Shown: piece by piece, positions 1-13,275 of the stretch
How the letters are laid out: each line of letters opens with the position of its first letter
How positions within the stretch are numbered: the first letter of the stretch is position 1
The notes under the pieces: model-generated
Seen by the model: only the letters and a program-made list of their open reading frames with translations
Told to the model about the DNA's origin: nothing
Database searches by the model: none
Translations under genes and position numbers: made by a program
UHGV virus genome: UHGV-0356291
Strand: one strand, 5' to 3'
DNA from: a virus
Length of the DNA: 13,275 bases

Positions 1-1
1 A

Positions 2-160
2 GAGCGATTGAACAAACAGTTCGCACAACTTGAAAGCGAGCGTCAGTCGTTCGAGCCGCACTGGCGCGAGTTGAGTGATTACATCAACCCGCGTGGTTCC
101 CGCTTTCTGACTTCTGAGGTTAACCGTAACGATCGACGCCACAACTTAACAGGGCCATAA
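2..160 (+). CDS. portal protein, N-terminal fragment (5'-partial; start codon upstream of window); terminated by TAA 158-160 in the present orientation
   Basis: Frame 2 is open from position 2 and reads ERLNKQFAQLESERQSFEPHWRELSDYINPRGSRFLTSEVNRNDRR, resembling from memory the N-terminal region of T7 gp8 (YERLKNDRAPYETRAQ...). Same frame as the 215-1633 ORF. Confidence 0.6.
   Translation, partial: ERLNKQFAQLESERQSFEPHWRELSDYINPRGSRFLTSEVNRNDRRHNLTGP
94..139. repeat. left arm of 46-bp perfect inverted repeat (partner 289-334)
   Basis: Exact reverse complement of 289-334, checked base by base; mismatch at 93/335 and 140/288 defines the ends. Confidence 0.95.
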
Positions 161-214
161 TCCATCATTTCAGGATCTGGCGTAGCCAGGCGAAACCACG
201 GACGCGCGGGGCTT

Positions 215-1633
215 GTGATGCCTGACATCATGCCGCTGGCGAGAGTGCGCGCCGCCATAGTCCCGGTCGAATCAATAATGCGTGTATTGCGTCGATCGTT
301 ACGGTTAACCTCAGAAGTCAGAAAGCGGGAACCAGGAAGCCTCGGCACATACAGCACTGGTGCAATGGCAGTGCTGGAGGATGACGAGGACATCATTCGC
401 ACAATGCCATTCCCGATAGGCAGTTACTACCTGGCTAACTCACCTCGTGGCAGTGTGGACACCTGTTTTCGCAAGTTCTCTATGACTGTTCGTCAGCTTG
501 TTCAGGAGTTCGGGCTAAATAACGTCAGCGAATCCGTAAAAAGCATGTGGGAAAGCGGAACCTACGAGAAGTGGATTGAAGTGATGCATTCGGTTTACCC
601 GAACATTGACCGCGATACATCGAAGCTGGATAGCAAGAACAAGCCATTCAAATCGGTTTATTACGAGGTTGGTGGCGATAACGACAAGTTGTTGCGTGAG
701 TCCGGATTCGATGAGTTTCCAATTATGGCTCCGCGCTGGGAAGTTAACGGCGAAGATGTTTATGGATCATCATGCCCGGGTATGCTGGCGCTTGGACCTG
801 TTAAGGCATTGCAGCTTCTCCAGAAGCGCAAGTCGCAGTTGATTGATAAAGCCACCAATCCGCCGATGGTTGCTCCGACTTCCCTCAAGAATCAGCGTGC
901 CTCCCTTCTTCCTGGCGACATCACGTATATCGATCAGATTACTGGTCAGGATGGTTTCAGGCCTGCTTATCTGGTTAACCCCAGTACAGCAGATTTGGTG
1001 GCAGACATTCAGGACACCCGTCAAATCATTAACAGCGCCTACTTTGTCGATCTGTTCATGATGTTGCAGAACATCAATACCCGCTCGATGCCTGTTGAAG
1101 CGGTGATCGAAATGAAAGAAGAAAAACTTCTGATGTTGGGGCCGGTTCTGGAGCGTCTGAACGACGAATGTCTTAATCCTCTCATTGACCGCGCTTTCTC
1201 GATGATGGTGCGTAAAAACATGCTGCCGCCACCGCCTGACGCGATGGAAGGTATGCCCCTGAAGGTCGAATACATTTCCGTCATGGCTCAGGCGCAGAAG
1301 TCTATCGGCCTGTCCAGTCTGGCGTCTACGGTCAACTTCATTGGTCAACTTGCGCAAGCGAAACCAGAAGCTCTCGACAAACTCAACGTTGATCAGGCGA
1401 TCGATGCATTCGCTGATATGTCCGGAGTGTCTCCAACCGTCATTGTTCCGCAGGAACAGGTTGAGCAGGCTCGCCAGCAACGGGCACAGCAACAACAGCA
1501 GCAACAAATGATGGCGATGGGGATGGCGGCGGCACAGGGTGCCAAGACGCTAAGCGAAGCTAAAACTTCGGATCCGAGTGTTTTGTCAGCTATGGCGAAT
1601 GCAGTTAGTGGTCAGGGTGGGCAATCACAATGA
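215..1633 (+). CDS. portal (head-to-tail connector) protein, T7 gp8-like; 5' region disrupted, so ATG 215 is probably not the native start
   Basis: 472-aa ORF. C-terminus QQRAQQQQQQQMMAMGMAAAQGAKT matches the Q-rich ...QQSMQMGMDNGAAALAQGMAAQ tail I recall from T7 gp8. No Shine-Dalgarno before ATG 215; first ~25 codons are antisense of the flipped segment. Confidence 0.8.
   Translation: MMPDIMPLARVRAAIVPVESIMRVLRRSLRLTSEVRKREPGSLGTYSTGAMAVLEDDEDIIRTMPFPIGSYYLANSPRGSVDTCFRKFSMTVRQLVQEFGLNNVSESVKSMWESGTYEKWIEVMHSVYPNIDRDTSKLDSKNKPFKSVYYEVGGDNDKLLRESGFDEFPIMAPRWEVNGEDVYGSSCPGMLALGPVKALQLLQKRKSQLIDKATNPPMVAPTSLKNQRASLLPGDITYIDQITGQDGFRPAYLVNPSTADLVADIQDTRQIINSAYFVDLFMMLQNINTRSMPVEAVIEMKEEKLLMLGPVLERLNDECLNPLIDRAFSMMVRKNMLPPPPDAMEGMPLKVEYISVMAQAQKSIGLSSLASTVNFIGQLAQAKPEALDKLNVDQAIDAFADMSGVSPTVIVPQEQVEQARQQRAQQQQQQQMMAMGMAAAQGAKTLSEAKTSDPSVLSAMANAVSGQGGQSQ
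289..334. repeat. right arm of 46-bp perfect inverted repeat (partner 94-139)
   Basis: Exact reverse complement of 94-139. Confidence 0.95.
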
Positions 1634-1926
1634 CAGATTACGAAGACGATCAACTGAAAGAAGAAAACGCCCGTAAGCAACGTGACATGGCACAGCGTGA
1701 AATTGATGACATTTGCTTTGTCATGAGCAGTGAACAGGGGCGTCGCGTTGTCTGGTCGGTGCTGGAGAAAGGCCGTGTGTTTTCCGCTATCTCACCGATG
1801 GACGCTATGGCTATGGCATTTAATGAGGGGCAACGCAATCTGGCGCTGGAACTGTTTCAGCGCGTTATGGCGCATTGCCCTGAACAGTATTTGAAGATGG
1901 CCAAAGAGGCCAGTGAACAGGAGTGA
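1630..1926 (+). CDS. hypothetical protein (98 aa), between portal and scaffold
   Basis: ATG 1630 overlaps portal stop (ATGA); stop TGA 1924-1926 overlaps next gene; acidic/charged protein; no function recognised. Confidence 0.55.
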   Translation: MTDYEDDQLKEENARKQRDMAQREIDDICFVMSSEQGRRVVWSVLEKGRVFSAISPMDAMAMAFNEGQRNLALELFQRVMAHCPEQYLKMAKEASEQE

Positions 1927-1928
1927 TC

Positions 1929-2624
1929 ATGAATTTATTTGAGCGTTTGCTGTATCGCCGTCTTTGCAATGAGCAACCAGTCGATGGTGGAGCAGCTCCG
2001 GCTGCGTCAGAACCGTCAGCGCCTGCAGGTGATAACCCTGCTCCAGTTGGTGATCCATCACAACCGGAAGGTGATAAGCCACAACCTGTTGCTGATGGCG
2101 ATAAACCTGCTGATGACAAAAAGCCTGAAAACGATAAGCAGGATGAAAAAAAGGACGGCGATAAAACAGAGGGTGCGCCTGAGAAGTACGAGTTTCAGGC
2201 TGCCGAAGGCGTAGAGCTGGATACAGAAGCGTTGAAGGAATTCGAGCCGGTGGCGCGAGAACTAAACCTGACCAACGAGCAAGCGCAAAAGCTGGTTGAT
2301 GCTTATCCGAAGATTCTGGCAGGTGTTCAGCAGCGCCAGGCAGAAGCCTGGCAGAAAACAACCGAGCAGTGGGCTGCTGATGTAAAAGCTGACAAAGAAA
2401 TCGGTGGCGACAAGTTGATTTCTAACCTTAGCGCCGCACAGCGTGCGCTTGACCAGTTCGGGACACCTGAACTCAAAGAATATCTGAACACCACCGGGCT
2501 GGGTAATCACCCTGATCTGGTCAAAACGTTCGTGAAAATCGGAAAGGCGATGTCTGAAGATGGCATGGTCACCGGTGGTAATGAAGGCCAGCGTAGTGCG
2601 GCCGAAGTGCTCTATGGCAAATAA
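1929..2624 (+). CDS. putative scaffolding (capsid assembly) protein
   Basis: AGGAG at 1919-1923, 5 nt before ATG 1929 (six-frame track starts at in-frame GTG 1923). Highly acidic, Pro/Asp/Lys-rich N-terminal half, helical-looking C-terminal half, sits directly upstream of the capsid gene as T7 gp9 does. Confidence 0.6.
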   Translation: MNLFERLLYRRLCNEQPVDGGAAPAASEPSAPAGDNPAPVGDPSQPEGDKPQPVADGDKPADDKKPENDKQDEKKDGDKTEGAPEKYEFQAAEGVELDTEALKEFEPVARELNLTNEQAQKLVDAYPKILAGVQQRQAEAWQKTTEQWAADVKADKEIGGDKLISNLSAAQRALDQFGTPELKEYLNTTGLGNHPDLVKTFVKIGKAMSEDGMVTGGNEGQRSAAEVLYGK

Positions 2625-2638
2625 GAGAGGAAATGACA

Positions 2639-3625
2639 ATGGCTGTTAAAGGCTTAACTGCGCTAACGCTGGCTGACTGGGGTAAGCGCGTCGATCCAAA
2701 CGGGAAAGTCGATAAGATTATCGAGCTTCTCGGTCAAACTAACCCGATCCTTCAGGATATGCCTTTTGTCGAAGGGAACCTTCCTACCGGACACCGAACC
2801 ACCATTCGTTCTGGTTTACCTTCAGCTACCTGGCGTTTGCTGAACTATGGCGTACAGCCAAGCAAATCAACCACAGTACAGGTAACCGATTCCGTTGGCA
2901 TGCTGGAAACCTATGCGGAAGTCGATAAGTCACTGGCTGATCTGAACGGCAATACCGCCGAATTCCGCCTGTCTGAAGACCGCGCATTTATTGAAGCGAT
3001 GAATCAGCAGATGGCGCAGACGCTGTTTTATGGTGATTCCAGCGTTAACCCTCAGCAGTTTATGGGACTGTCCTCCCGCTATTCCAGCCTGTCTGCGGGT
3101 AATGCTCAGAACATCATTGATGCTGGTGGCACGGGTACAGATAACACCTCAATCTGGTTAGTGGTGTGGGGCGAAAACACCGTGCATGGCATCTTCCCGA
3201 AAGGGCAGAAGGCTGGCATCCAGATGGAAGATAAAGGCCAGGTGACACTGGAAGATGCTAATGGCGGCAAGTACGAAGGCTATCGCACCCATTACAAATG
3301 GGATAACGGACTTGCTCTGCGTGACTGGCGTTATGTTGTTCGCATTGCAAACATCGATGTCAGCAATCTTTCAGAACCTTCCTCTGCCGCAAATATTGCG
3401 AAGTTGATGGTTAAAGCACTGCATCGCATTCCAAATCGTGGCATGGGTCGCCCGGTGTTCTACATGAACCGCACTGTAGGCCAGGCTCTTGATCTGCAAT
3501 CTCTGGAGAAAACATCTCTGGCGATCAGCGTAAAAGAGACAGAAGGCGAGTGGTGGACTTCATTCCGTGGTGTACCAATCCGTGAAACTGATGCGCTTCT
3601 GGAAACAGAAGCCCGCGTGGTGTAA
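2639..3625 (+). CDS. putative major capsid protein (~328 aa)
   Basis: GAGG at 2627-2630, 8 nt before ATG 2639 (ATG 2633 is too close to the SD). Position after scaffold and size close to T7 gp10A (~345 aa from memory); called by synteny, no specific motif recognised. Confidence 0.6.
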   Translation: MAVKGLTALTLADWGKRVDPNGKVDKIIELLGQTNPILQDMPFVEGNLPTGHRTTIRSGLPSATWRLLNYGVQPSKSTTVQVTDSVGMLETYAEVDKSLADLNGNTAEFRLSEDRAFIEAMNQQMAQTLFYGDSSVNPQQFMGLSSRYSSLSAGNAQNIIDAGGTGTDNTSIWLVVWGENTVHGIFPKGQKAGIQMEDKGQVTLEDANGGKYEGYRTHYKWDNGLALRDWRYVVRIANIDVSNLSEPSSAANIAKLMVKALHRIPNRGMGRPVFYMNRTVGQALDLQSLEKTSLAISVKETEGEWWTSFRGVPIRETDALLETEARVV

Positions 3626-3641
3626 CGCCTGTTATTAACCT

Positions 3642-3661
3642 GTGGGTCGTAACAGACCCAC
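3642..3661 (+). promoter_or_regulatory. RNA stem-loop just downstream of capsid stop (GTGGGTC-gtaaca-GACCCAC)
   Basis: 7-bp GC-rich perfect stem with 6-nt loop, 17 nt after TAA 3623-3625; no U-tract follows, so not a classic intrinsic terminator. Confidence 0.5.
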
Positions 3662-3676
3662 TAATGGAGAAAGAAG

Positions 3677-4114
3677 ATGATCACCGACAAACTGTTGATG
3701 TTCTCCGAAGCACAGGCGGTAACTGATACCGCGGCTTCTACTGACGTAATCGATCTCGGTCCAATTGACGGAAAACGTCGTGATATCGGCGTGGGTTACC
3801 CGCTTGAGTTTTGGGCGCTGGTTAACACAGCCGCCGCAGCAAGCGGTGATGCAACTGTAAACATCCAGTTGCAGACGAGTGAGGATAACAGCTCATGGTC
3901 CACTATTTATGATAGTGGCGCACTGGCAAAGGCCACCCTGACAGCAGGTAAGCGAGTTGTTTCTGCAAAGGTGCCAGCCGGTGTTCAGCGATATCTGCGT
4001 GTTAACTACTCCGTCGCAACTGGCCCACTAACGGCTGGCAAATTCACTGCGGGTATCAATCTTGATGTTGATGCCAATACGCCGTATCCGATCCGCTCAA
4101 AAGTAACTGGTTAA
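3677..4114 (+). CDS. hypothetical virion-associated protein (145 aa)
   Basis: GGAG 3666-3669, 7 nt before ATG 3677; Ala/Thr/Gly-rich beta-like composition; no homolog named. Confidence 0.6.
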   Translation: MITDKLLMFSEAQAVTDTAASTDVIDLGPIDGKRRDIGVGYPLEFWALVNTAAAASGDATVNIQLQTSEDNSSWSTIYDSGALAKATLTAGKRVVSAKVPAGVQRYLRVNYSVATGPLTAGKFTAGINLDVDANTPYPIRSKVTG

Positions 4115-4124
4115 GGTGATATTG

Positions 4125-4460
4125 ATGTCAGGTGAGAAACCAAGATACCGCGTTCTGCGCCTCTCTCATATCCATAACACTCTGTGGCCGGAGGGGGCAG
4201 AAATCGAATACGAAGGTGAGCCTGGTAGCGCACTGGAACCTGTTAACGATGCAGCCAGACAGGCAAAAGCAAAAGTTGCAGGAAAAGAGTCAATGGCAGC
4301 AACCAGCACCAAAATCATCAACGATGTGTCAGATGATGGTGAACTGGATAAGCTCCGTGAAGAGTACGAATTGCTCTTTAACGAGAAGCCACACCATAAC
4401 GCCAAAGCCGAAACGCTCCGCGAGAAGATCGCAGATAAGCGTAAAGAACTGGGCGTGTAA
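4125..4460 (+). CDS. hypothetical protein (~112 aa)
   Basis: AAGGTG 4113-4118, 6 nt before ATG 4125 (track starts at GTG 4116); charged C-terminal half; followed immediately by an intrinsic terminator. Confidence 0.6.
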   Translation: MSGEKPRYRVLRLSHIHNTLWPEGAEIEYEGEPGSALEPVNDAARQAKAKVAGKESMAATSTKIINDVSDDGELDKLREEYELLFNEKPHHNAKAETLREKIADKRKELGV

Positions 4461-4478
4461 GCCTCGCGGATCAGACAA

Positions 4479-4498
4479 GGGGCTTCGGCCCCTTTATT
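4479..4498 (+). terminator. rho-independent terminator (GGGGC-ttcg-GCCCC then TTTATT)
   Basis: GC stem with UUCG tetraloop and U-rich tail, 19 nt after stop 4458-4460; stem can extend to AAGGGGC/GCCCCTT from 4477. Confidence 0.6.
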
Positions 4499-4510
4499 GC
4501 AGGAGTGTAT

Positions 4511-4834
4511 ATGGAACTCGTAAACCTCAAAACCGGCACTGACAGCTACCAGGATGAGAGCGGAGAAACCAGAACTCGCGATGAATACCCGTGGGGGCTG
4601 TGCATCACTCTTAATAACGACACATTGAATAAGCTGAAGGCGCAACCTCAGGGCGTCGGAACAGAAGTGATGATAACTGCAAAGGCTGTTATTCGAGGCC
4701 TGTCTGCCAGAGAAACTGACGATGGTGTTAATCGCAGCGCCGATCTGCAGATCACTGATATGGCGATCGCTCCTGTTTCCGGGGATGTAGAAAAATCAGC
4801 GGCTGAAACCCTGTACGGCAATGGGGGTGAGTAA
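4511..4834 (+). CDS. hypothetical protein (~107 aa) with scaffold-like C-terminal tail
   Basis: AGGAG 4500-4504, 6 nt before ATG 4511 (track starts at GTG 4505); C-terminus ...VEKSAAETLYGNGGE parallels scaffold C-terminus ...GQRSAAEVLYGK; stop TAA overlaps next ATG (TAATG). Confidence 0.6.
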   Translation: MELVNLKTGTDSYQDESGETRTRDEYPWGLCITLNNDTLNKLKAQPQGVGTEVMITAKAVIRGLSARETDDGVNRSADLQITDMAIAPVSGDVEKSAAETLYGNGGE

Positions 4835-5439
4835 TGGCCTCTGTAGTAGAGATCTGCAATCGTGCGCTGTCCAATATTGGCAATAGCCGCAGCATTAACA
4901 GCCTGACGGAAGCCAGCAAGGAAGCGGGGGAATGTTCGCTGCACTTTGAGGCCTGCCGTGATGCTGTGCTTTCTGATTTTGACTGGAACTTTGCTACCAA
5001 ACGCGTGGCGCTGGCAGATACGAGCAATCCACCGCCTGACTGGGAATATGCGTATCAGTACCCGTCCGATTGTCTGCGCATTACTGAAATTATGCTTCCT
5101 GGTGTACGCAATCCAACAGCAGCAATGCGCGTTCAGTACGAAGTAGGTGTAGACACCAACGGAACAGGAAAGTTGATCTACACAGACCAGCCTCAGGCAT
5201 GGCTCAAGTATGTCTCTCGCGTTACAGATGTGAACATGTTTGATGCCATTTTTATGGAGGCGTTGGCCTGGCGTCTTGCGGCAGCTATTAACATGGCGCT
5301 GACTGGGAATGCAGACCTCGGTACGTTTGCCCTCAATATGTACAATCGCGTGATTCTTAGTGCTGGCTCGCATAGCCAGAATGAATCACAGGAACCACAG
5401 CCACCGGTTGACGAGTTTACCATTGCGAGGTTGTCCTGA
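4834..5439 (+). CDS. putative tail tubular protein A (T7 gp11-like)
   Basis: 201 aa versus ~196 aa for T7 gp11 (from memory); N-terminal ICNRALSNIGNSRSINSLTEA resembles T7 gp11 AVNDILASIGEPPVSTLEG; followed by a ~800-aa gene as in T7. Confidence 0.55.
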   Translation: MASVVEICNRALSNIGNSRSINSLTEASKEAGECSLHFEACRDAVLSDFDWNFATKRVALADTSNPPPDWEYAYQYPSDCLRITEIMLPGVRNPTAAMRVQYEVGVDTNGTGKLIYTDQPQAWLKYVSRVTDVNMFDAIFMEALAWRLAAAINMALTGNADLGTFALNMYNRVILSAGSHSQNESQEPQPPVDEFTIARLS

Positions 5440-7910
5440 TGGCTATCAGTTGGATACAGCCCAGCTTTGCCGGTGGTGAGATTGGACCGTCGTTGTACGG
5501 TCGTATCGACATGGCGAAGTACCAGGTGGCATTGCGCAAGTGCGATAACTTTATCGTGCGGCAGTATGGCGGCGTTGAGAATCGACCTGGTACGCGTTTT
5601 GTCGGTGCCGCCAAATACCCAAATCGGAAATGCCGCCTGATCCCGTTCCAGTTCTCGACGGTTCAGACCTATGCTCTGGAGTTCGGACACCAGTACATGC
5701 GCGTTATCAAAGATGGTGCGTTGGTGCTGAACAGCAGCAATGTTATTTATGAAATTTCCACGCCATATACTGAAGCCGATCTGTTCCGAATTAAATTCAC
5801 GCAAAGCGCAGACGTGCTTACGCTGGTTCATCCGGCATACCCGCCGAAAGAGTTGCGCCGCTATGCGCATGACAACTGGCAACTGGTTGATGTGGTAACG
5901 AAGAACGGGCCATTTGAAGATATCAATATTGACGAGTCAGTGACGGTTTATGCCAGCGCCAGCACCGGGACAATTACGTTAACGGCAAGCGCCTCTATTT
6001 TTGGCGCGGAGCAGGTAGGCAAATTGTTCTATCTGGAACAGCCTGCAGTGGATTCTGTGCCGGTATGGGAAACCAGTAAGAGTACGTCGATTGGCGATAT
6101 TCGCCGTGCAGACAGTAACTACTATCGCGCCGTTACAGCAGGCAAAACAGGTACTTTGCGCCCTTCGCATACAGAAGGCACATCATGGGATGGCTGGGGC
6201 GGATCCGGTGATGATGATACTGGCATTGAGTGGGAGTATCTGCACAGTGGTTTTGGCATTGCCCGTATCACTGCTGCAAATGGCACTACTGCAACTGCTG
6301 AGGTGATTTCCTATATCCCTTCGCAGGTCGTTGGCGAGGATAATGCCAGCTATAAATGGGCTAAATATGCCTGGAACAGTGTTAATGGTTATCCTGGCAC
6401 TGTTGTTTATTATCAACAACGTCTTTACTTCGCCGCATCGACTGCGTTTCCTCAGACTATCTGGGCCAGCCGTACCGGGGATTATAAGGATTTTGGCAAA
6501 AGCAATCCTACGCAGGATGACGACAGAATTATCTACACCTATGCCGGACGTCAGGTTAATGAGATCCGCCACCTGATTGATGTTGGTTCTCTGGTGGCGC
6601 TGACTTCCGGAGGTGAGTACGTCATCACCGGCGACCAGAACAAAGTGTTAACCCCATCATCATTTGCATTCAGCTCTCAGGGATCAAATGGCTCAAGCAA
6701 CGTCCCGCCAATTGCCGTGGCGAATATTGCTCTGTTCGTCCAGGAGAAAGGCAGCGTTGTCCGTGATCTGGCCTACTCATTCGATGTTGACGGCTATCAG
6801 GGGAACGACCTGACCATCCTTGCCAATCATCTTTTTCAGAAGCACAGCATTGTTGACTGGTGCTTCTCGATTGTCCCTTACTCCAGTGCCTTCTGCATTC
6901 GTGATGACGGTAAATTACTGGTGATGACCTATTTGCGTGATCAGCAGGTTTTTGCATGGGCACCACAATCCAGTACCGGAAAATATGAAAGCACATGCAG
7001 TATCAGCGAAGGCAATGAAGATGCGGTGTATTTCGTCGTTAACCGAACCGTTAACGGGCAAACAGTGAGATACATCGAGCGACTGTCCAGCCGTTTATTT
7101 ACCAGCGATGAAGATGCTTTCTTTGTTGATTCTGGCCTTAGCTATGATGGAAGAAATACGTCTGACAGAACGATGACCATCACTGGTGGTTCTGGTGAAT
7201 GGGATTACCATGCGGAATATACAATCAGTGTTTCTGGTGGTGCGTACTTCACCAGTAGTGATGTCGGCGCGCAACTACAGTTCCCTTATACCGGAACTGA
7301 TCCTGATACTGGCGATGAAGTGTCAAAAGAATTACGTTGCGACATTATTTCTGTAACCAGCAATACCGCTGTAGTGGTTCGTGCTAACAGGAACGTCCCG
7401 CCATCCCTCAGGAATGTGGCCACCACGAACTGGCAGATGGCGCGCCGGACATTTGGCGGCTTGTCTCATCTTGAAGGCCAGACCGTAAACATCCTCTCTG
7501 ATGCGAACGTGGAACCACAGAAAGTGGTTTCCGGAGGTGCCGTCACGCTGGAATCTCCGGGGGCTGTAGTGCACATCGGCCTGCCAATAACTGCTGAATT
7601 CGAAACACTGGATATCAACATTAACGGACAGGAAACGCTGCTGGACAAAAAACAGGTGATCCCGTCCGTTACTCTGGTTGTGAATGCCAGTCGCGGCATC
7701 TGGGCGACTACGCCCGGCGGTAAATGGTACGAATATCCACAGCGTGAATTCGAGTTCTACGATGATCCTGTTGATGATGCTACCGGAAAAGTAGAAGTGA
7801 AACTGGACAGTAACTGGGGCAAAAACGGACGTGTAAAAATCCGTCAGCTTGATCCGTTGCCGCTGTCTGTTCTTGCCGTTATTCCTCGCCTTACTGTTGG
7901 GGGATTCTGA
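5439..7910 (+). CDS. putative tail tubular protein B / nozzle (T7 gp12-like)
   Basis: 823 aa versus ~794 aa for T7 gp12 (from memory); start overlaps upstream stop (TGATG); N-terminus MAISWIQPSFAGGEIGP loosely resembles T7 gp12 MALISQSIKNLKGGISQQP; assignment mostly by size and order. Confidence 0.5.
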   Translation: MAISWIQPSFAGGEIGPSLYGRIDMAKYQVALRKCDNFIVRQYGGVENRPGTRFVGAAKYPNRKCRLIPFQFSTVQTYALEFGHQYMRVIKDGALVLNSSNVIYEISTPYTEADLFRIKFTQSADVLTLVHPAYPPKELRRYAHDNWQLVDVVTKNGPFEDINIDESVTVYASASTGTITLTASASIFGAEQVGKLFYLEQPAVDSVPVWETSKSTSIGDIRRADSNYYRAVTAGKTGTLRPSHTEGTSWDGWGGSGDDDTGIEWEYLHSGFGIARITAANGTTATAEVISYIPSQVVGEDNASYKWAKYAWNSVNGYPGTVVYYQQRLYFAASTAFPQTIWASRTGDYKDFGKSNPTQDDDRIIYTYAGRQVNEIRHLIDVGSLVALTSGGEYVITGDQNKVLTPSSFAFSSQGSNGSSNVPPIAVANIALFVQEKGSVVRDLAYSFDVDGYQGNDLTILANHLFQKHSIVDWCFSIVPYSSAFCIRDDGKLLVMTYLRDQQVFAWAPQSSTGKYESTCSISEGNEDAVYFVVNRTVNGQTVRYIERLSSRLFTSDEDAFFVDSGLSYDGRNTSDRTMTITGGSGEWDYHAEYTISVSGGAYFTSSDVGAQLQFPYTGTDPDTGDEVSKELRCDIISVTSNTAVVVRANRNVPPSLRNVATTNWQMARRTFGGLSHLEGQTVNILSDANVEPQKVVSGGAVTLESPGAVVHIGLPITAEFETLDININGQETLLDKKQVIPSVTLVVNASRGIWATTPGGKWYEYPQREFEFYDDPVDDATGKVEVKLDSNWGKNGRVKIRQLDPLPLSVLAVIPRLTVGGF

Positions 7911-8374
7911 TGATCGATGTTCAAATTATTCCCGCAACCGAAGAGCATCTTCAGATGATTTTGCCGGATGTTCGTCAGGCTGATATTGACGAACTGTATG
8001 CGGTATCACTGATGACTACCGAAGATGCGCTGCGTGTTGGTCTGCGTACTGCGACTATGGCCTGGTCAGGATTTGCGAACGGAGAACTGGTAACCATGTT
8101 TGGCGTATCTCCGGCGTCAATGATCGGTGGCAATGGTACGCCCTGGCTGGTCGGAACCAGCCGCATCGAAAAATATCAGAAGACATTTCTTCGCCACTGC
8201 CGCCCTGTATTGCAGCAGATGCTGGCAGTTTATCCGCGCCTGGAAAACTATGTCGACGAGCGAAACCATGTTGCCAAAGCATGGCTGCACTGGCTTGGAT
8301 TCAGGCTTGAAGAAGCCGCGCCTTATGGTGCTCTTGGTCTTAATTTCCACAGATTTCACATGGAGAGAAAATAA
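7910..8374 (+). CDS. hypothetical protein (154 aa), T7 gp13-like position
   Basis: Start overlaps upstream stop (TGATG); size near T7 gp13; no motif recognised. Confidence 0.6.
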   Translation: MIDVQIIPATEEHLQMILPDVRQADIDELYAVSLMTTEDALRVGLRTATMAWSGFANGELVTMFGVSPASMIGGNGTPWLVGTSRIEKYQKTFLRHCRPVLQQMLAVYPRLENYVDERNHVAKAWLHWLGFRLEEAAPYGALGLNFHRFHMERK

Positions 8375-8391
8375 TGTGTAACCCAGCCATC

Positions 8392-8494
8392 GCTTTGGTT
8401 GCCGTCACAGTGGCATACGCTGATCCGCTTCAATATTCCCACGATTGATTGAATCCTGTGCCTGAGCTTCAGCAATTTCAGCATTCCGATCAGC
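8392..8494. repeat. rotated inverted copy of 8551-8651 (two blocks: 8392-8416 and 8417-8494)
   Basis: 8392-8416 is the reverse complement of 8551-8575 and 8417-8494 is the reverse complement of 8574-8651, both exact. Confidence 0.95.
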
Positions 8495-8495
8495 T

Positions 8496-9041
8496 ATGGC
8501 TGACTGGTATTTTGCCTGCTTGCTCTGGCTGTACATTGACGCGGCTGTGGATGCCACTGTGACGGCAACCAAAGCTGATCGGAATGCTGAAATTGCTGAA
8601 GCTCAGGCACAGGATTCAATCAATCGTGGGAATATTGAAGCGGATCAGCGTCGTCGTGAAATGCGTCAACGCTCAGGCACTGCGGCGGCCACTATGGGGG
8701 CTACCGGTGCGGAATTAAGTAGCGGAACAGCTCTTGACGTTTTTGCGGATAATGCTCAGTTCGGCACTCTTGATGCGTTAACGACAGTGAATAATGCTCA
8801 GCGTGAGGCATATGGGTATCAGGTTCAGGGAATGAATGCTCAGGCACAGGGGGCTGCTGCTCAGTCGGCTGCTAAATCATCGATGACCAGCACTTTGTTA
8901 ACGGCACCACTAAAAGCATACGGTGCATATAAGTTGGGTAGCGGAAGTATCAATCCGATTAGTAAGCAAGGAAACACGCCAATGTTATCTAACTCAGGTT
9001 TTATGAATTCTGACTCCCGATTCAAAATAGGAGGTTACTGA
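8496..9041 (+). CDS. putative internal virion protein (181 aa), T7 gp14-like position
   Basis: ORF with hydrophobic N-terminus (WYFACLLWLYIDAAV) and Ala/Gln-rich middle; no SD before ATG 8496 and in-frame TGA at 8463-8465; stop overlaps next ATG. Confidence 0.55.
   Translation: MADWYFACLLWLYIDAAVDATVTATKADRNAEIAEAQAQDSINRGNIEADQRRREMRQRSGTAAATMGATGAELSSGTALDVFADNAQFGTLDALTTVNNAQREAYGYQVQGMNAQAQGAAAQSAAKSSMTSTLLTAPLKAYGAYKLGSGSINPISKQGNTPMLSNSGFMNSDSRFKIGGY
8551..8651. repeat. in-gene partner of the upstream inverted copy 8392-8494
   Basis: Encodes in frame DATVTATKADRNAEIAEAQAQDSINRGNIEADQR of the 181-aa ORF, so this copy is the coding original. Confidence 0.95.
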
Positions 9042-11788
9042 TGCCTGTTGTTCCTACTACATCCGGACGCCAGGTGCAAAGTCGTGGTGTGCAAACCGGT
9101 GGTTTTCAGACCTTCGATGTTCCTCAAGCAGGTCAGGTGCTGGCGAATGTCGCAGATCAGTATGCGGTGGCATATGGTGAAGCCAGGCAGAAAGCGAATG
9201 TTGCTATGGCCCAGGAGGCGTTACTGCAATTTAACCAATTTGCAGATGACCAGATTAACAACCCTGAAAATGGGCTGATTTCTAAACAGGGTAAAAACGC
9301 TCTTGGTCAGAGTGACGCTGTTATGAAAAATATGCAGGAAAGGGCTCAGGCATTATTAGGCTCAATTCCTGAAAGTGAGGAAAGGAATAAATTATCCTTT
9401 CAACTCCAGCAGTCTATGCAGTCTTATTACAATCAGGCACGTCGATATGAAGTTGGGCAGTTTCAGCAATTCCAAGATCAAACGTATTTGTCAGGAAATG
9501 CATTGGCTGTCACTCAGTCTGCGGGGCTATATAGCGATAACCAAGCATTTGTCGATTTAGCCAAGCAGCGATTTGAATCTATTGATCAATACGCTGATGC
9601 GCATGGGCTTCCTGATGAGTGGCGTGTTCAGCAGAAAACTCAGCTCAAGGAACAAATGGGGCAGCAAGCATGGATAGGAAATATCGCTCAAAAATACAAC
9701 GAGTTTCTTCAGGTTAATGGAGAGCCAGGGGATCTTGATGGTGTGAGTCGTGCAATATCACATGGTAATTCATTGGATGCTCGTGGTTTACGTAATAATA
9801 ACCCCGGTAATATTGAAGCGAGCAAATCTAACCCGTGGGAAGGTCAGATCGGTAGCGATGGACGTTTTGCAACGTTTGCTACCCCTGAGCATGGAATCCG
9901 CGCGTTGGGTAAAAATATGTTGTCTTACCAGCGTCAAGGCTATGACACCGTTAGCGAGATTGTTAATCGCTATGCTCCGGCTAGTGATGGTAATAATACT
10001 GATGCTTATATTAGGGCATTGTGTGGTGAGCTTGGTGTTGGGGAGAATGATCAGCTTGATATCTCTAACCCAAAGACACTAGCTGCTTTATGTGCTGGGA
10101 TTATTAAACACGAAAATGGCAGTATGCCTTATAGCACCGAACAGCTTGAAACTGGTATCTCGGCAGCCCTTGGTCTAACTAACCTTGATTCACCTAAGCG
10201 TTATACGGGCAATGCGGCATTTGATGCTATGAGCCCTCAAATGCAAATACAGGCATTGAGGCAGGCTAATGAGCTGAGAAATCAGTACCGCCAGCAGTAT
10301 GCGGACCAGCTTAGCACCGTAGTTAAAGATGCATATTCAGCCCTTGATGAAGGATTGAAACCTGAGAAGTTACCTTCTGAGGACGATTTTATCCGGGCCA
10401 ATGGTCCGCGCATTGGCGCTATGAAGTGGAAGGATATGCAGGCGCAGATACAATATGGAGGTGTCATTGGTGCCGCTAAAGACCTCACTCCAGAAGGACG
10501 GCAAGACATTCTTGAACGTTTACGTCCACAGGATCCAAACGCTCCTGGATTTGCAGCTAACCAGCAACGCTGGGAGAAAATGCAGGCCAAATTTAAAGAG
10601 ATGGATAGGGAGTGGGAGATTCAGCAGGGAAGAAACAGGTTCGTGTCTTCAATGCAAAATAACTTCCCGCTGGACCCGAACGACAAAAACAATCAGGCAG
10701 CGGTAGACCGTTATTTCGCGCAGGATATCGCGCCTTCGTTTTCCATATCTGATCCGCAGAGCATCAATACACTGGTCACCGTCACAACTAAAAGCGGCAT
10801 GATACCAACTCAGATTAAAACAATGCTTAACAGTGGAGCGACATCAAGAGATCCTGCGCTGGTTGTCCCGATGGCAAAATTCTACGGTCAGTTATTCGAT
10901 AATAATCCGGCGGCAGCGGCAACACTTGATAAAAGTACGATGGCATTTTACGGCAAGGTTTACGATTATTCCCGCGCTGGCGTGCCGGAGGATAAGGCTG
11001 TTGATATGGCTTACAGCCAGGTGTTCCAACAGGATGACCGAATGAAACAGATGCTTTCCACTGCCATGCGAGACAAAAAATATGTCGCGGCGAGGGCAAC
11101 TGCTGCACAAAATAACGCCAGCAGTCTGACTTCCTTTGGTTCGTGGTCTCCGGATATTACCGATCCAGGAAAATCAAATGCGGCCTATCAGCGAGATTAC
11201 CAGACAATTTACGATGCTAACTTTGTACAGACAGGTGGCGATGCAGAACAGGCTGAGAAAATGACCAATGCCATGATCAGAACCACTTGGGGAGTTTCTA
11301 CGGTTAATGGCAAAGCAGAGGTTATGAAGTATGCACCTGAGGCATTGTACGGAGTAAATAATGGTGCTGGTAACTGGATACAGGGGCAGTGGGAGCAGGA
11401 AAAACGCGAGCTTAAATCAAAATCCTTTGGCGGTCCTCGCAGTGATACGGACTTAATACTTGTTTCTGATGGCCTTACGGCAAGGGATAGGAGTTATGCT
11501 GTTATGGTTTTACAGCCTGACGCAAACGGAGCGATAGAACCGAGAAATTATATTGGAGAAAATGGTCTCCCTGTTCGTTTCAAGCCGGATCAGCTGACAT
11601 CTCCAATGTACAGGCAAACCATTCAGTTCCAGCAACAGCGTGTTGATGAGGCTAGAGTGCGGAGAGAAGGCAATCCGCTGCCGCAGTTCAGCAATAAAGA
11701 TGGATATACTCCTCCAGATCTGACAAAACCATTCGGTTATGGTTCAGCCAATTACCTTCCGAGCAATATATACGCAGGGGGCAAATAA
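9041..11788 (+). CDS. putative internal virion / ejection protein (915 aa) with a conserved-looking RNNNPGNI...RYAP block
   Basis: Long ORF coupled to flanking genes (TGATG / TAATG); Gln-rich; position equals T7 gp15/gp16; lower GC than upstream genes. Confidence 0.7.
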   Translation: MPVVPTTSGRQVQSRGVQTGGFQTFDVPQAGQVLANVADQYAVAYGEARQKANVAMAQEALLQFNQFADDQINNPENGLISKQGKNALGQSDAVMKNMQERAQALLGSIPESEERNKLSFQLQQSMQSYYNQARRYEVGQFQQFQDQTYLSGNALAVTQSAGLYSDNQAFVDLAKQRFESIDQYADAHGLPDEWRVQQKTQLKEQMGQQAWIGNIAQKYNEFLQVNGEPGDLDGVSRAISHGNSLDARGLRNNNPGNIEASKSNPWEGQIGSDGRFATFATPEHGIRALGKNMLSYQRQGYDTVSEIVNRYAPASDGNNTDAYIRALCGELGVGENDQLDISNPKTLAALCAGIIKHENGSMPYSTEQLETGISAALGLTNLDSPKRYTGNAAFDAMSPQMQIQALRQANELRNQYRQQYADQLSTVVKDAYSALDEGLKPEKLPSEDDFIRANGPRIGAMKWKDMQAQIQYGGVIGAAKDLTPEGRQDILERLRPQDPNAPGFAANQQRWEKMQAKFKEMDREWEIQQGRNRFVSSMQNNFPLDPNDKNNQAAVDRYFAQDIAPSFSISDPQSINTLVTVTTKSGMIPTQIKTMLNSGATSRDPALVVPMAKFYGQLFDNNPAAAATLDKSTMAFYGKVYDYSRAGVPEDKAVDMAYSQVFQQDDRMKQMLSTAMRDKKYVAARATAAQNNASSLTSFGSWSPDITDPGKSNAAYQRDYQTIYDANFVQTGGDAEQAEKMTNAMIRTTWGVSTVNGKAEVMKYAPEALYGVNNGAGNWIQGQWEQEKRELKSKSFGGPRSDTDLILVSDGLTARDRSYAVMVLQPDANGAIEPRNYIGENGLPVRFKPDQLTSPMYRQTIQFQQQRVDEARVRREGNPLPQFSNKDGYTPPDLTKPFGYGSANYLPSNIYAGGK

Positions 11789-12957
11789 TGCCGATATATG
11801 AACAGGATCCTAAAGAGTTGCTTGGCGAGGGTATTCAGCAAATAGCAGCACCTGATGACAGTAATTTCTATATGGAAACACCTTCTTTGCTTTCTGCTGT
11901 GAACCCATTTACCAGTGATCAACGCGTTCAAAGGTCTAGACAAGCAGCATTTCGTATAGATAACACGCTGGGTAGCTTTATTGCCAGTGCTCCTTTCAGT
12001 CAGTTTGACAGGGTTGAAGGATATAACCCATTTGATAACGATGCAGCAGATATTAAAGGCTATGAAGATTTTGCAGATTCGTTTATCAACTCCGGTTCGC
12101 ATGAAGAAACAATGGCAATTAAACATCGAATCGATCAGCAGAGAGCTGACATGGAATACAATTCAGGCTTGGGATTTGCTGGTACAGTCTCTTCTGTAGC
12201 AATGAGATTAGCAGATCCATTCAATGCGATTTCTATGTTTATTCCGTTCGGCGCTGTCGTTCGTGGCGGTCGTATTGCAGAAACAGCCGGACGTTTTGCT
12301 TTAGCCAATGCTGCTGGCAGTGTTGCTTCAGAGGCCGCATTGCAGGCCACTCAGGAAGCTCGCTCACCGATGGAGAGCGTATCGAACGTTGTTGTTGATG
12401 CTCTCGTTGGTGGGATCCTTGGTGCTGGTGCACAGCTACTTGCTGGACCTAGCGCGCGCGAGGCAGTGGTTAACTCAGTAGGTAATCATTTGCGAGGTAT
12501 GGATTCTCCTCAAAGCATTGGTGCAGCTCAGGTTTTCAATACCACACTCGATCAGGAACAGCTTGCTGGACTTGGACTTGCTAACAAAACGTTGAGTGTC
12601 ACTCCTGCTGGCCGCTTGGCGCAATCACCATCTCTTGTTTCCCGTCAGATTAACCAGCAGCTTGCCGAAAATAACTATTTCTTCGCCAAAAATGATGAGG
12701 GGTTGGCTACGTTTACGGCAGTCGAGACTAAGATTAAGCAATACGACGCCATGCTTTATAAGCAGATGGAAGCTACTCGTGATGCTTACCAGCAGTACAG
12801 CAAATCTGTCAGCGCCCGCGGCGTGAAGAGGATGAACTTTATTGATTTCAATGAAGCTGTTGGCATGGCTATGCGCCGTGGTGATCAGAGTGATATTCCT
12901 GAGGTTTCACAAGCTTTTCAATTCGCTGACCTGCTTTGTCAGCACCTTTGGCACTAA
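11788..12957 (+). CDS. putative internal virion protein, apparently truncated at 389 aa by an inverted-duplication insert
   Basis: ATG overlaps upstream stop; ORF ends at TAA 12955-12957 inside the inverted copy; frame resumes at 13062 after the direct repeat. Confidence 0.65.
   Translation: MPIYEQDPKELLGEGIQQIAAPDDSNFYMETPSLLSAVNPFTSDQRVQRSRQAAFRIDNTLGSFIASAPFSQFDRVEGYNPFDNDAADIKGYEDFADSFINSGSHEETMAIKHRIDQQRADMEYNSGLGFAGTVSSVAMRLADPFNAISMFIPFGAVVRGGRIAETAGRFALANAAGSVASEAALQATQEARSPMESVSNVVVDALVGGILGAGAQLLAGPSAREAVVNSVGNHLRGMDSPQSIGAAQVFNTTLDQEQLAGLGLANKTLSVTPAGRLAQSPSLVSRQINQQLAENNYFFAKNDEGLATFTAVETKIKQYDAMLYKQMEATRDAYQQYSKSVSARGVKRMNFIDFNEAVGMAMRRGDQSDIPEVSQAFQFADLLCQHLWH
12899..12914. repeat. 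direct repeat CTGAGGTTTCACAAGC, copy 1
   Basis: Identical to 13060-13075; both copies sit at the boundaries of the inverted copy. Confidence 0.9.
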
Positions 12958-13060
12958 TCCCTTGTATCCAGTTGGCAATTCGCCCTCTGAATTCAGTGCG
13001 GTCGGAAAGTATCTTATCGAACTTATAAATGCGGGGAAGATAACTCTTCGCCGTCACGAC
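12940..13060. repeat. inverted copy (121 bp visible) of 13155-13275
   Basis: Exact reverse complement of 13155-13275; may extend left to 12915 if the partner continues beyond the window end. Confidence 0.95.
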
Positions 13061-13075
13061 TGAGGTTTCACAAGC
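13060..13075. repeat. direct repeat CTGAGGTTTCACAAGC, copy 2
   Basis: Identical to 12899-12914. Confidence 0.9.
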
Positions 13076-13275
13076 AGCCGCCAGAATCCGCCCCATTTTT
13101 GAGACCACAAAAGCCCGTATGCAGGAATTGGGGATCCTTCCTGAGGATATCGATGTCGTGACGGCGAAGAGTTATCTTCCCCGCATTTATAAGTTCGATA
13201 AGATACTTTCCGACCGCACTGAATTCAGAGGGCGAATTGCCAACTGGATACAAGGGATTAGTGCCAAAGGTGCTG
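13062..13275 (+). CDS. continuation of the 11788 gene (3'-partial, runs off window)
   Basis: Frame 3 open from 13062 to window end: EVSQAAARIRPIFETTKARMQELGILPEDIDVVTAKSYLPRIYKFDKILSDRTEFRGRIANWIQGISAKGA; begins with the same EVSQA as the upstream direct-repeat copy. Confidence 0.5.
13155..13275. repeat. downstream partner of inverted copy 12940-13060 (coding orientation)
   Basis: Exact reverse complement of 12940-13060; lies in the open frame continuing the last gene. Confidence 0.95.

What the first reader, a model, noticed from the sequence alone, without database searches (positions are those of the whole stretch)
94..334. Flippable 149-bp segment bracketed by 46-bp perfect inverted repeats splits the portal gene
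94-139 is the exact reverse complement of 289-334. In the present orientation the portal N-terminal frame hits TAA at 158-160 and the body restarts at ATG 215 with no ribosome-binding site. Reading the reverse complement of 140-288 in the same frame gives NTRIIDSTGTMAARTLASGMMSGITSPARPWFRLATPDPEMMDYGPVKLW with no stop, joined in frame to both repeat arms. It contains the A-R-x-L-x-x-L-A-S-x-x-M...P-x-x-W-x-R-L pattern I recall at the equivalent place in T7 gp8 (AVGARGLNNLASKLMLALFPMQTWMRL). So the native portal ORF (about 560 aa) exists only with the segment flipped. This could be a genuine ON/OFF inversion switch of an essential virion gene, a one-off inactivating rearrangement in a defective prophage, or an assembly chimera.
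Basis: partly seen in the sequence, partly recalled or inferred. Interest (0 to 1): 0.8.

Follow-up and report, generated by a model that had tools for sequence, protein, structure and literature searches.

The report
Chimeric scar in a prophage portal gene
The inverted repeat is real, but it is not a genetic switch: it is one of three short "forward-backward-forward" scrambles in an otherwise letter-perfect copy of a common E. coli prophage, most likely made during sequencing or assembly rather than in the cell.

Summary
The 46-nt perfect inverted repeat (94-139 / 289-334) and the broken portal frame are really there. The "flip restores the portal" reading fails. Window 1-1700 equals, base for base, reference prophage (E. 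coli MCJCHV-1, NZ_CP030111.1) 1377416-1377554 forward, then 1377703-1377509 reverse-complemented, then 1377780 onward. The right arm is therefore a non-native inverted second copy of the left arm, and 76 bp of the native gene are missing. Flipping 140-288 would give a 549-aa protein in which 25 conserved native residues are replaced by 15 foreign ones, not the 559-aa portal. None of 122 independent loci has the arm in both orientations. None of about 530 E. coli genomes, 22 phage records or at least 120 IMG/VR contigs has the rearranged form. The reference prophage has no invertase. Two more events of the same anatomy lie at 8417-8575 and 12915-13060. The whole 13,275-nt window is seven reference pieces with zero point differences, whereas 125 other loci (925 kb) show no such piece. 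Junction microhomology (2, 0, 0, 3, 1, 1 nt) is at chance level. Best explanation: chimeric joins made during sequencing or assembly (about 0.8). Rival: a one-off in-vivo rearrangement in a dead prophage (about 0.17). A programmed switch is about 0.02. Low interest.

The parts
1..139 (+). Native portal 5' part (codons 7-52). The window starts 17 nt after the portal ATG of the reference.
   Evidence: Exact match to NZ_CP030111.1 1377416-1377554.
94..139 (+). Left arm of the 46-nt inverted repeat. This is the native copy and is ordinary portal coding sequence (GSRFLTSEVNRNDRR).
   Evidence: Present once, in this orientation, in 122 of 122 independent loci.
139..140 (.). Junction E1j1: + strand at ref 1377554 joined to - strand at ref 1377703, a jump of 149 nt ahead. 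Microhomology is 2 nt (GC).
   Evidence: The 33-34-mer across the junction is absent from viral contigs, genome contigs and metagenome contigs.
140..288 (-). Native portal codons 53-102, present only in reverse-complement orientation.
   Evidence: Its reverse complement equals ref 1377555-1377703 exactly. Its translation is identical to the native protein.
289..334 (-). Right arm: a non-native, inverted second copy of 94-139. It is the tail of the 195-nt reverse-complement block 140-334.
   Evidence: The reverse complement of 289-334 maps to the same reference bases as 94-139, and the reference has no second copy.
334..335 (.). Junction E1j2: - strand at ref 1377509 joined to + strand at ref 1377780, with 0 nt microhomology. 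The 76 bp ref 1377704-1377779 (portal residues 103-127) are missing here.
   Evidence: The junction 34-mer is absent from viral contigs.
335..1633 (+). Remainder of the portal gene (native residues 128-559). The longest ORF in the present state is GTG 215..1633 (472 aa) and covers only positions 124-488 of the 489-position Pfam portal profile.
8417..8575 (-). Event 2, same anatomy: a 159-nt reverse-complement block (ref 1385995..1385837) between forward blocks ending at ref 1385861 and resuming at 1385920. It creates IRs of 25 nt (8392-8416 / 8551-8575) and 79-86 nt (8417-8502 / 8566-8651), and it breaks the 5' end of the T7 gp14-family core protein gene.
   Evidence: No E. coli genome covers at least 80% of 8330-8720 in one place. 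The junction is absent from metagenome contigs.
12915..13060 (-). Event 3, same anatomy: a 146-147-nt reverse-complement block (ref 1390483..1390338) inserted after ref 1390258, with forward sequence resuming at 1390244. It creates a 16-nt direct duplication (12899-12914 / 13060-13075) and a 121-nt perfect IR (12940-13060 / 13155-13275) that runs to the window end. It truncates the DUF919 large internal virion protein gene to 389 aa.
   Evidence: No E. coli genome covers at least 80% of 12800-13275 in one place. The junction is absent from genome contigs.

Best explanation
The feature is a non-programmed chimeric scar. It is one of three in this window and was most likely created outside the cell, during amplification or library preparation, or by an assembler following chimeric joins through thinly covered sequence. 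It is unlikely to be a property of the phage genome.

Shown: the sequence runs forward along the portal gene to ref 1377554. It then jumps 149 nt ahead onto the opposite strand and reads back 195 nt. That re-copies the last 46 nt already written, which is the only reason a perfect 46-nt inverted repeat exists. It then jumps back to the forward strand 76 nt beyond the first landing point, so those 76 nt are lost. The same forward-reverse-forward pattern, with reverse blocks of 159 and 146 nt, recurs at 8417-8575 and 12915-13060. Everything else in the window is identical to the reference.

Inferred: the six joins are homology-independent, each flips strand, and each spans only 83-271 nt. That is what naive joining of the two mates of a paired-end fragment would give (jump = insert length minus read length). 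Short-range strand switching on a single amplified molecule would also give it. At low coverage such joins can become the only path across a gap, such as the missing 76 bp.

Consequence: in the sequence as written, the portal, a gp14-like core protein gene and a DUF919 internal virion protein gene are all disrupted. Flipping 140-288 would not repair the portal.
For: (1) The whole 13,275-nt window is reconstructed exactly from seven pieces of NZ_CP030111.1 with zero point differences (100.0% blocks).
(2) There are three events of the same anatomy in 13.3 kb, against zero opposite-strand pieces in 125 other public loci of this prophage family (925 kb aligned).
(3) No rearranged form exists anywhere else. 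The best hits among 532 E. coli records and 22 phage records reach only 89% coverage in 2 pieces. No genome carries E2 or E3. Four of the six junction 33-34-mers were scanned, each in one to three collections, and all were absent. The native 34-mer control found at least 120 IMG/VR contigs.
(4) None of the rearrangement-specific gene products is among about 15 billion proteins.
(5) Microhomology of 2, 0, 0, 3, 1, 1 nt matches chance (P=0.24).
(6) All strong inverted repeats of the window are by-products of the three events, and the native region has none.
(7) E1 lies 94 nt from the window start. E3 ends 215 nt from the window end, and its inverted block contains 26 nt of reference that lie beyond the window end.
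(8) Independent short-read metagenome assemblies also fail at the same place. L004 has an 89-N scaffold gap over ref L003 12695-12785, against the window's missing 12705-12780. Three other contigs start at 12809-12811.
Against: No reads are available, so no junction could be tested for read support. The source of the window could not be traced, so the sequencing method, coverage and use of amplification are unknown. It is also unknown whether the window ends are contig ends.

The specific in-vitro model with published statistics fits poorly. In MDA, 93.5% of proximal inverted junctions have at least 2 nt of complementarity (PMC1855051), against 2 of 6 here (P=2.4e-4). Enzymatic-fragmentation artefacts need a native inverted repeat at the junction (PMC7531576), and none is present.

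A plain de Bruijn contig does not normally traverse the same k-mers twice, as the 46-, 25-, 79- and 121-nt repeats would require. The exact in-silico route is therefore not identified. The paired-end geometry argument is permissive, because almost any short-range inverted jump fits it.
Confidence: 0.8

Rival explanations
1. A real, one-off in-vivo rearrangement in a now-defective prophage. During replication the nascent strand switched to the opposite template a short distance ahead, copied back about 150-200 nt, and switched back (a FoSTeS/MMBIR-like double template switch). This happened three times in one episode or in quick succession, killing the portal, the gp14-like gene and the DUF919 gene. 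The 46-nt perfect arms could then permit rare RecA-dependent flipping, without restoring function.
For: The anatomy (inverted block with partial duplication and deletion, short range) is what a double template switch produces. The prophage lies in a bacterial chromosome, where inactivating lesions are tolerated. Zero SNPs is compatible with a very recent event.
Against: Three private complex events with zero private point mutations contrast with none in 925 kb of 125 related loci and none in about 530 E. coli genomes. Junction microhomology is at chance level, whereas replicative template switching is expected to use short homologies (established knowledge, not tested here). There is no native quasi-palindrome at any breakpoint. 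The events sit next to both window ends.
Confidence: 0.17
2. A programmed ON/OFF inversion switch (an intragenic inverton) in the portal gene: a recombinase flips 140-288 between the 46-nt arms to turn virion production on or off.
For: A perfect inverted repeat brackets a short intragenic segment, and one orientation gives a premature stop while the other gives an open frame. This is the formal layout of the 'premature stop' intragenic invertons described in PMC10028968.
Against: The right arm is not native: 0 of 122 loci have the arm in both orientations. The 'ON' state lacks 25 conserved residues and carries 15 foreign ones. The reference prophage has no invertase, only the att-site tyrosine integrase, RecT and a nuclease. 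The arms are ordinary coding sequence, and the repeat exists only as a by-product of the 195-nt inverted block. Two sibling events in other genes have no switch-like layout. No public sequence shows this state.
Confidence: 0.02

Closest known systems
Intragenic invertons / programmed gene-altering inversions (Chanin et al., PMC10028968; Milman et al., PMC9881135)
   Same: A short segment inside a coding sequence bracketed by inverted repeats. One orientation introduces a premature stop.
   Different: In real invertons both repeat arms belong to the native gene, both orientations are seen in reads from one population, and an invertase acts on them. Here the second arm is a non-native duplicate, 76 bp of the gene are missing, no invertase is present, and no other genome shows either the arms or the alternative state.
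Inverted chimeras of multiple displacement amplification (Lasken & Stockwell 2007, PMC1855051)
   Same: [quoted passage not shown] That paper reports 85% of chimeras as inverted and mostly less than 10 kb apart.
   Different: MDA junctions close to each other nearly always (93.5%) show 2-21 nt of complementarity, against 2 of 6 here. The events here come as paired junctions 146-197 nt apart. Use of MDA in the source sample is unknown.
Fragmentation-enzyme 'dual-stranded' artefact reads (Gregory et al. 2020, PMC7531576)
   Same: Library molecules that combine nearby DNA from opposite strands.
   Different: Those artefacts pivot on inverted repeats that occur naturally in the genome. The native prophage has none at these breakpoints.
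Replicative template-switch rearrangements (FoSTeS/MMBIR-type inverted duplications; quasipalindrome template switching in E. coli).
   Same: A forward-reverse-forward structure with partial duplication and deletion over a few hundred bases.
   Different: These are expected to use microhomology or a pre-existing quasipalindrome, and neither is seen here. Three independent events in 13 kb without a single point change would be extraordinary.

Membership tests
Programmed DNA inversion switch (inverton) | Both inverted-repeat arms are native parts of the locus and are conserved in homologous loci | tested here: not met
   The reference has the 46-mer once. 122 of 122 loci carry it in one orientation only. 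The native region has no IR of 20 nt or more apart from one chance pair.
Programmed DNA inversion switch (inverton) | Both orientations of the segment occur in nature | tested here: not met
   At assembly level, only the native orientation occurs in about 530 E. coli genomes, 22 phage records and at least 120 IMG/VR contigs. The window's state is unique. Read-level heterogeneity in the source sample could not be tested.
Programmed DNA inversion switch (inverton) | A dedicated serine or tyrosine invertase is encoded nearby | tested here: not met
   The window holds only virion structural genes. The whole reference prophage (guaA to yfgI) has only an att-site tyrosine integrase, RecT and a PD-(D/E)XK nuclease. 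The unseen flanks of the window's own source could not be examined.
Programmed DNA inversion switch (inverton) | The alternative orientation yields an intact or meaningful alternative product | tested here: not met
   The flip gives 549 aa, with native residues 103-127 (conserved with solved portal 8ck0) replaced by 15 unrelated residues. The functionality of that product was not tested.
T7 gp8-type portal protein (Pfam PF12236 Head-tail_con) | Full-length match to the family profile | tested here: met
   The native reference protein matches at E=1.6e-187 over profile positions 2-488 of 489. The window's present ORF covers only positions 124-488. The closest solved structure is 8ck0_A, E=5.7e-179. 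The gene is a portal, but the window's copy is broken.
MDA-type inverted chimera | Nearby segments joined in inverted orientation within one molecule | tested here: met
   All six junctions flip strand, with jumps of 83-271 nt.
MDA-type inverted chimera | At least 2 nt of complementarity at most proximal junctions (93.5% in PMC1855051) | tested here: not met
   Microhomology is 2, 0, 0, 3, 1, 1 nt. P=2.4e-4 under the MDA rate and P=0.24 under chance.
Assembly or sequencing artefact (generic) | Junctions unsupported, or supported only by aberrant reads | not testable with these tools
   No reads are available and the source contig was not found.
Assembly or sequencing artefact (generic) | Private to one assembly, clustered with similar anomalies, on an otherwise error-free copy of a known sequence | tested here: met
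   Three events, zero SNPs. 0 events in 925 kb of other loci. Absent from all collections searched.

The most novel reading that the evidence does not exclude
The three scrambles are real and arose in vivo in a single burst of short-range double template switching during replication of a resident Uetakevirus prophage (a bacterial analogue of chromoanasynthesis). The burst would have killed three virion genes at once and, as a by-product, created perfect inverted repeats (46, 79 and 121 nt) that can now flip or break by host recombination.
Probability: 0.1. Interest if true: 0.45.

Novelty: not a real feature. Interest (0 to 1): 0.08.

Why it matters
If taken at face value, this would have been reported as a phase-variable switch inside an essential phage virion gene. 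That would be a striking claim, given the recent discovery of intragenic invertons. Comparison with intact homologs shows that the repeat is a by-product of a chimeric join and that flipping cannot restore the gene.

The practical lesson for a genome scan is that a perfect inverted repeat around a frame-breaking segment must be checked against intact relatives before it is called invertible. The check should ask whether both arms are native, whether any sequence is missing, and whether the contig carries sibling anomalies. This window should be flagged as containing three local mis-joins, at about 140-334, 8417-8575 and 12915-13060.

Tried and rejected
(1) Tracing the source contig. Exact look-ups of every rearrangement-specific product found nothing: the portal from starts 215, 218, 230, 245 and 278; the 5' partial product 2-160; ORFs 8496-9041 and 11788-12957; and the minus-strand ORFs. 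Only the fully native 422-aa product from ATG 365 is on record. It led to unrelated contigs L004-L007.

(2) Junction searches in viral, genome and metagenome collections all returned zero.

(3) 'The events sit on strain-polymorphism peaks, so graph bubbles caused them.' E1 lies at only the 30th-47th percentile of local divergence. The fetched loci do not cover E2 and E3 well enough to test. A dense SNP cluster at window 350-380 (13 haplotypes in 31 nt) may explain why other assemblies break there, but it does not explain E1.

(4) 'The 46-nt arm equals k-1 of a k=47 local assembler.' Rejected because the corresponding overlaps in E2 and E3 are 25, 79 and 16 nt.

(5) 'Each event is one read pair pasted in raw orientation.' Only E3 fits a single fragment. 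A looser paired-end geometry fits all six junctions but is not a stringent test (my inference).

(6) Restriction-site or proximity-ligation junctions: no common site appears at the six junctions (sequences).

(7) MDA and enzymatic-fragmentation artefacts as specific mechanisms both fail on their junction signature (PMC1855051, PMC7531576).

Family membership was shown by Pfam instead.

Full report
OBSERVATION. The repeat is real. Arms 94-139 and 289-334 are 46 nt, 100% complementary, and 149 nt apart. Chance would give about 2e-20 such pairs in a window of this size. In the present orientation the portal reading frame (frame 2) ends at TAA 158-160, and the longest downstream ORF is 215..1633 (472 aa). 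Its start is GTG 215, with the first ATG at 218, not 'ATG 215'. Reverse-complementing 140-288 opens the frame from base 2 to 1633.

WHAT THE LOCUS IS. The window is the virion-structural block of a Uetakevirus-type (phiV10/epsilon15-like) prophage that is common in E. coli. 529 of 5,426 complete genomes carry it, and many are 100% identical over the collinear parts. Phage relatives include vB_EcoP_ZX5, phiV10 and TL-2011b. In E. coli MCJCHV-1 (NZ_CP030111.1) the portal is a 559-aa protein, WP_000852419.1. It gives a full-length Pfam PF12236 (Head-tail_con) match at E=1.6e-187. It is also close to the solved portal 8ck0_A. The window begins 17 nt after its start codon.

ANATOMY OF THE FEATURE. 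Exact string mapping shows:
- window 1-139 = ref 1377416-1377554, forward
- window 140-334 = ref 1377703..1377509, reverse complement (195 nt)
- window 335 onward = ref 1377780 onward, forward

Three consequences follow.

First, the reference contains the 46-mer only once. The right arm is simply the tail of the 195-nt inverted block, which overlaps by 46 nt the sequence already written in the forward direction. The inverted repeat is a by-product, not a site.

Second, 76 bp of the native gene (ref 1377704-1377779) are absent. The net change is -30 nt. This agrees with the 1730-bp reference span for the 1700-nt query.

Third, flipping 140-288 cannot restore the portal. It gives 549 aa in which native residues 103-127 (LEAVQNRMNDMFNKSNLYQSLPQLY) are replaced by RRSLRLTSEVRKREP. 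The missing stretch lies inside the Pfam domain and aligns with a conserved stretch of 8ck0. The flipped product staying in frame is unremarkable. My estimate is a 1 in 3 chance for the phase and about 0.5 for 15 stop-free codons.

The junctions have 2 nt (GC) and 0 nt of microhomology.

TESTS OF THE SWITCH IDEA.
- Native arms: among 122 independent loci that carry the arm (IMG/VR, ENA, Logan and phage records), none has it in both orientations. 119 show the plain native order by the ungapped check. Of the other three, two are collinear with small indels and one has an N gap.
- Alternative state elsewhere: the best E. coli and phage hits all cover 89% of the query in two pieces, so they are in native order. 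The junction 33-34-mers are absent from IMG/VR, the GTDB representative genomes and the JGI metagenomes. The native 34-mer across the same breakpoint found at least 120 IMG/VR contigs.
- Recombinase: the window holds only structural genes. The whole reference prophage, between guaA and yfgI, has only an att-site tyrosine integrase, RecT and a PD-(D/E)XK nuclease.

Every defining feature of an intragenic inverton (PMC10028968; PMC9881135) that could be tested here is not met.

THE KEY CONTEXT: TWO SIBLING EVENTS. Aligning the whole window to the reference revealed two more forward-reverse-forward scrambles.

E2: forward sequence runs to ref 1385861. It is followed by the reverse complement of 1385995..1385837 (window 8417-8575, 159 nt), and forward sequence resumes at 1385920. 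Nothing is lost, but IRs of 25 nt and 79-86 nt are created. The 5' end of the T7 gp14-family gene is wrecked: its Pfam score drops from 31.6 to 23.4 bits, below the 27-bit cut-off.

E3: forward sequence runs to ref 1390258. It is followed by the reverse complement of 1390483..1390338 (window 12915-13060, 146 nt), and forward sequence resumes at 1390244. This creates a 16-nt direct duplication and a 121-nt perfect IR that reaches the window end. It truncates the DUF919 internal virion protein gene to 389 aa.

The whole 13,275-nt window is reproduced exactly by joining seven reference pieces, with no point differences. The native region has no inverted repeat of note. All strong IRs in the window (46, 25, 79-86 and 121 nt) come from these three events. 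No complete E. coli genome has E2 or E3. The two of their four junctions that were scanned, E2j1 and E3j1, are absent from the metagenome and genome collections respectively. As a background rate, 125 other public loci of this prophage family (925 kb aligned) contain no opposite-strand piece, against three in 13.3 kb here.

MECHANISM. Shown: six strand-flipping joins in three pairs. The reverse blocks are 195, 159 and 146 nt. The jump distances are +149, +271, +134, +83, +225 and -94 nt. Microhomology is 2, 0, 0, 3, 1, 1 nt, which is indistinguishable from chance (P=0.24).

Inferred: a process specific to this sequence record made short-range, homology-independent, strand-inverting joins. I rate an origin outside the cell at about 0.8, for four reasons:
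- three private complex events sit beside zero private point mutations
- the rate contrast with 925 kb of relatives is very large
- E1 and E3 sit 94 and 215 nt from the two window ends, and E3's inverted block carries 26 nt of reference that lie beyond the window end
- the same stretch of the portal gene defeats independent short-read assemblies: L004 has an 89-N scaffold gap over ref L003 12695-12785, against the window's missing 12705-12780, and L005-L007 start at 12809-12811

The jump sizes fit 'insert minus read length' for ordinary paired-end libraries. They would arise if mates were joined in raw orientation and such joins became the only path across thin coverage, but this geometric fit is permissive.

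The two published artefact classes that I could test both fit imperfectly. MDA chimeras share the short-range inverted geometry, but 93.5% of proximal inverted junctions have at least 2 nt of complementarity (PMC1855051), against 2 of 6 here (P=2.4e-4). Enzymatic-fragmentation artefacts pivot on native inverted repeats (PMC7531576), which are absent. The exact route therefore remains unidentified. Only reads can settle it.

RIVALS. A genuine in-vivo double template switch, or a burst of them, in a decaying prophage has the right geometry, and I cannot exclude it (about 0.17). It must, however, explain three events without a single SNP, chance-level microhomology, and uniqueness among hundreds of genomes. 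If it were real, the 46-nt arms could support rare homologous flipping. The flipped gene would still lack a conserved segment. A programmed switch is about 0.02.

VERDICT. The 'flip restores the portal' and 'ON/OFF switch' interpretations are not supported. This is not a real biological feature as far as the evidence goes, and interest is low. The useful outputs are a quality flag for three mis-joins in this window and a simple rule: compare against intact homologs before calling a repeat-flanked segment invertible.

Noticed in passing
window 8392-8651: A second forward-reverse-forward scramble. The 159-nt block 8417-8575 is the reverse complement of reference sequence, creating perfect or near-perfect IRs of 25 nt (8392-8416 / 8551-8575) and 79-86 nt (8417-8502 / 8566-8651). 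It destroys the 5' end of the T7 gp14-family core protein gene.
   Followed up: yes
window 12899-13275: A third scramble. The 146-147-nt inverted block 12915-13060 is copied from sequence downstream of its insertion point. It comes with a 16-nt direct duplication (12899-12914 / 13060-13075) and a 121-nt perfect IR (12940-13060 / 13155-13275) that runs to the last base of the window. The DUF919 internal virion protein gene is truncated to 389 aa.
   Followed up: yes
window 1-13275: Apart from the three scrambles, the window has zero point differences from the guaA-yfgI prophage of E. coli MCJCHV-1 (NZ_CP030111.1). The collinear blocks are also 100% identical in several other complete genomes, including WP3-W18-CRE-03, EcPF40, SCU-204 and 09-02E.
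   Followed up: yes
L004 1654-1742 (= L003 12695-12785); L005, L006 and L007 first bases (= L003 12810, 12809, 12811; window 364, 363, 365): Independent short-read metagenome assemblies break in the same roughly 115-bp stretch of the portal gene. One ENA scaffold has an 89-N gap that nearly coincides with the 76 bp missing from the window. Three contigs (two Logan, one ENA) start within 3 nt of each other. A dense SNP cluster there (13 haplotypes in 31 nt among 121 loci) probably causes strain bubbles. The near-coincidence with the E1 deletion is not fully explained.
   Followed up: partly
window 352-376: A small native hairpin, CAGCACTG-gtgcaatgg-CAGTGCTG, lies inside the portal gene. Synonymous variants at one paired position occur as T..A, T..G and C..G but never C..A across 121 loci. 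Other common variants break the stem, so the evidence for a conserved structure is weak.
   Followed up: partly
window 94-139 and 289-334: Both arms carry the GGTTAACC allele of MCJCHV-1, whereas most IMG/VR relatives differ from the reference by about one base in this stretch (L004, for example, has GGTCAACC). The duplicated arm was therefore copied from the same genome, not from a co-resident related prophage.
   Followed up: partly
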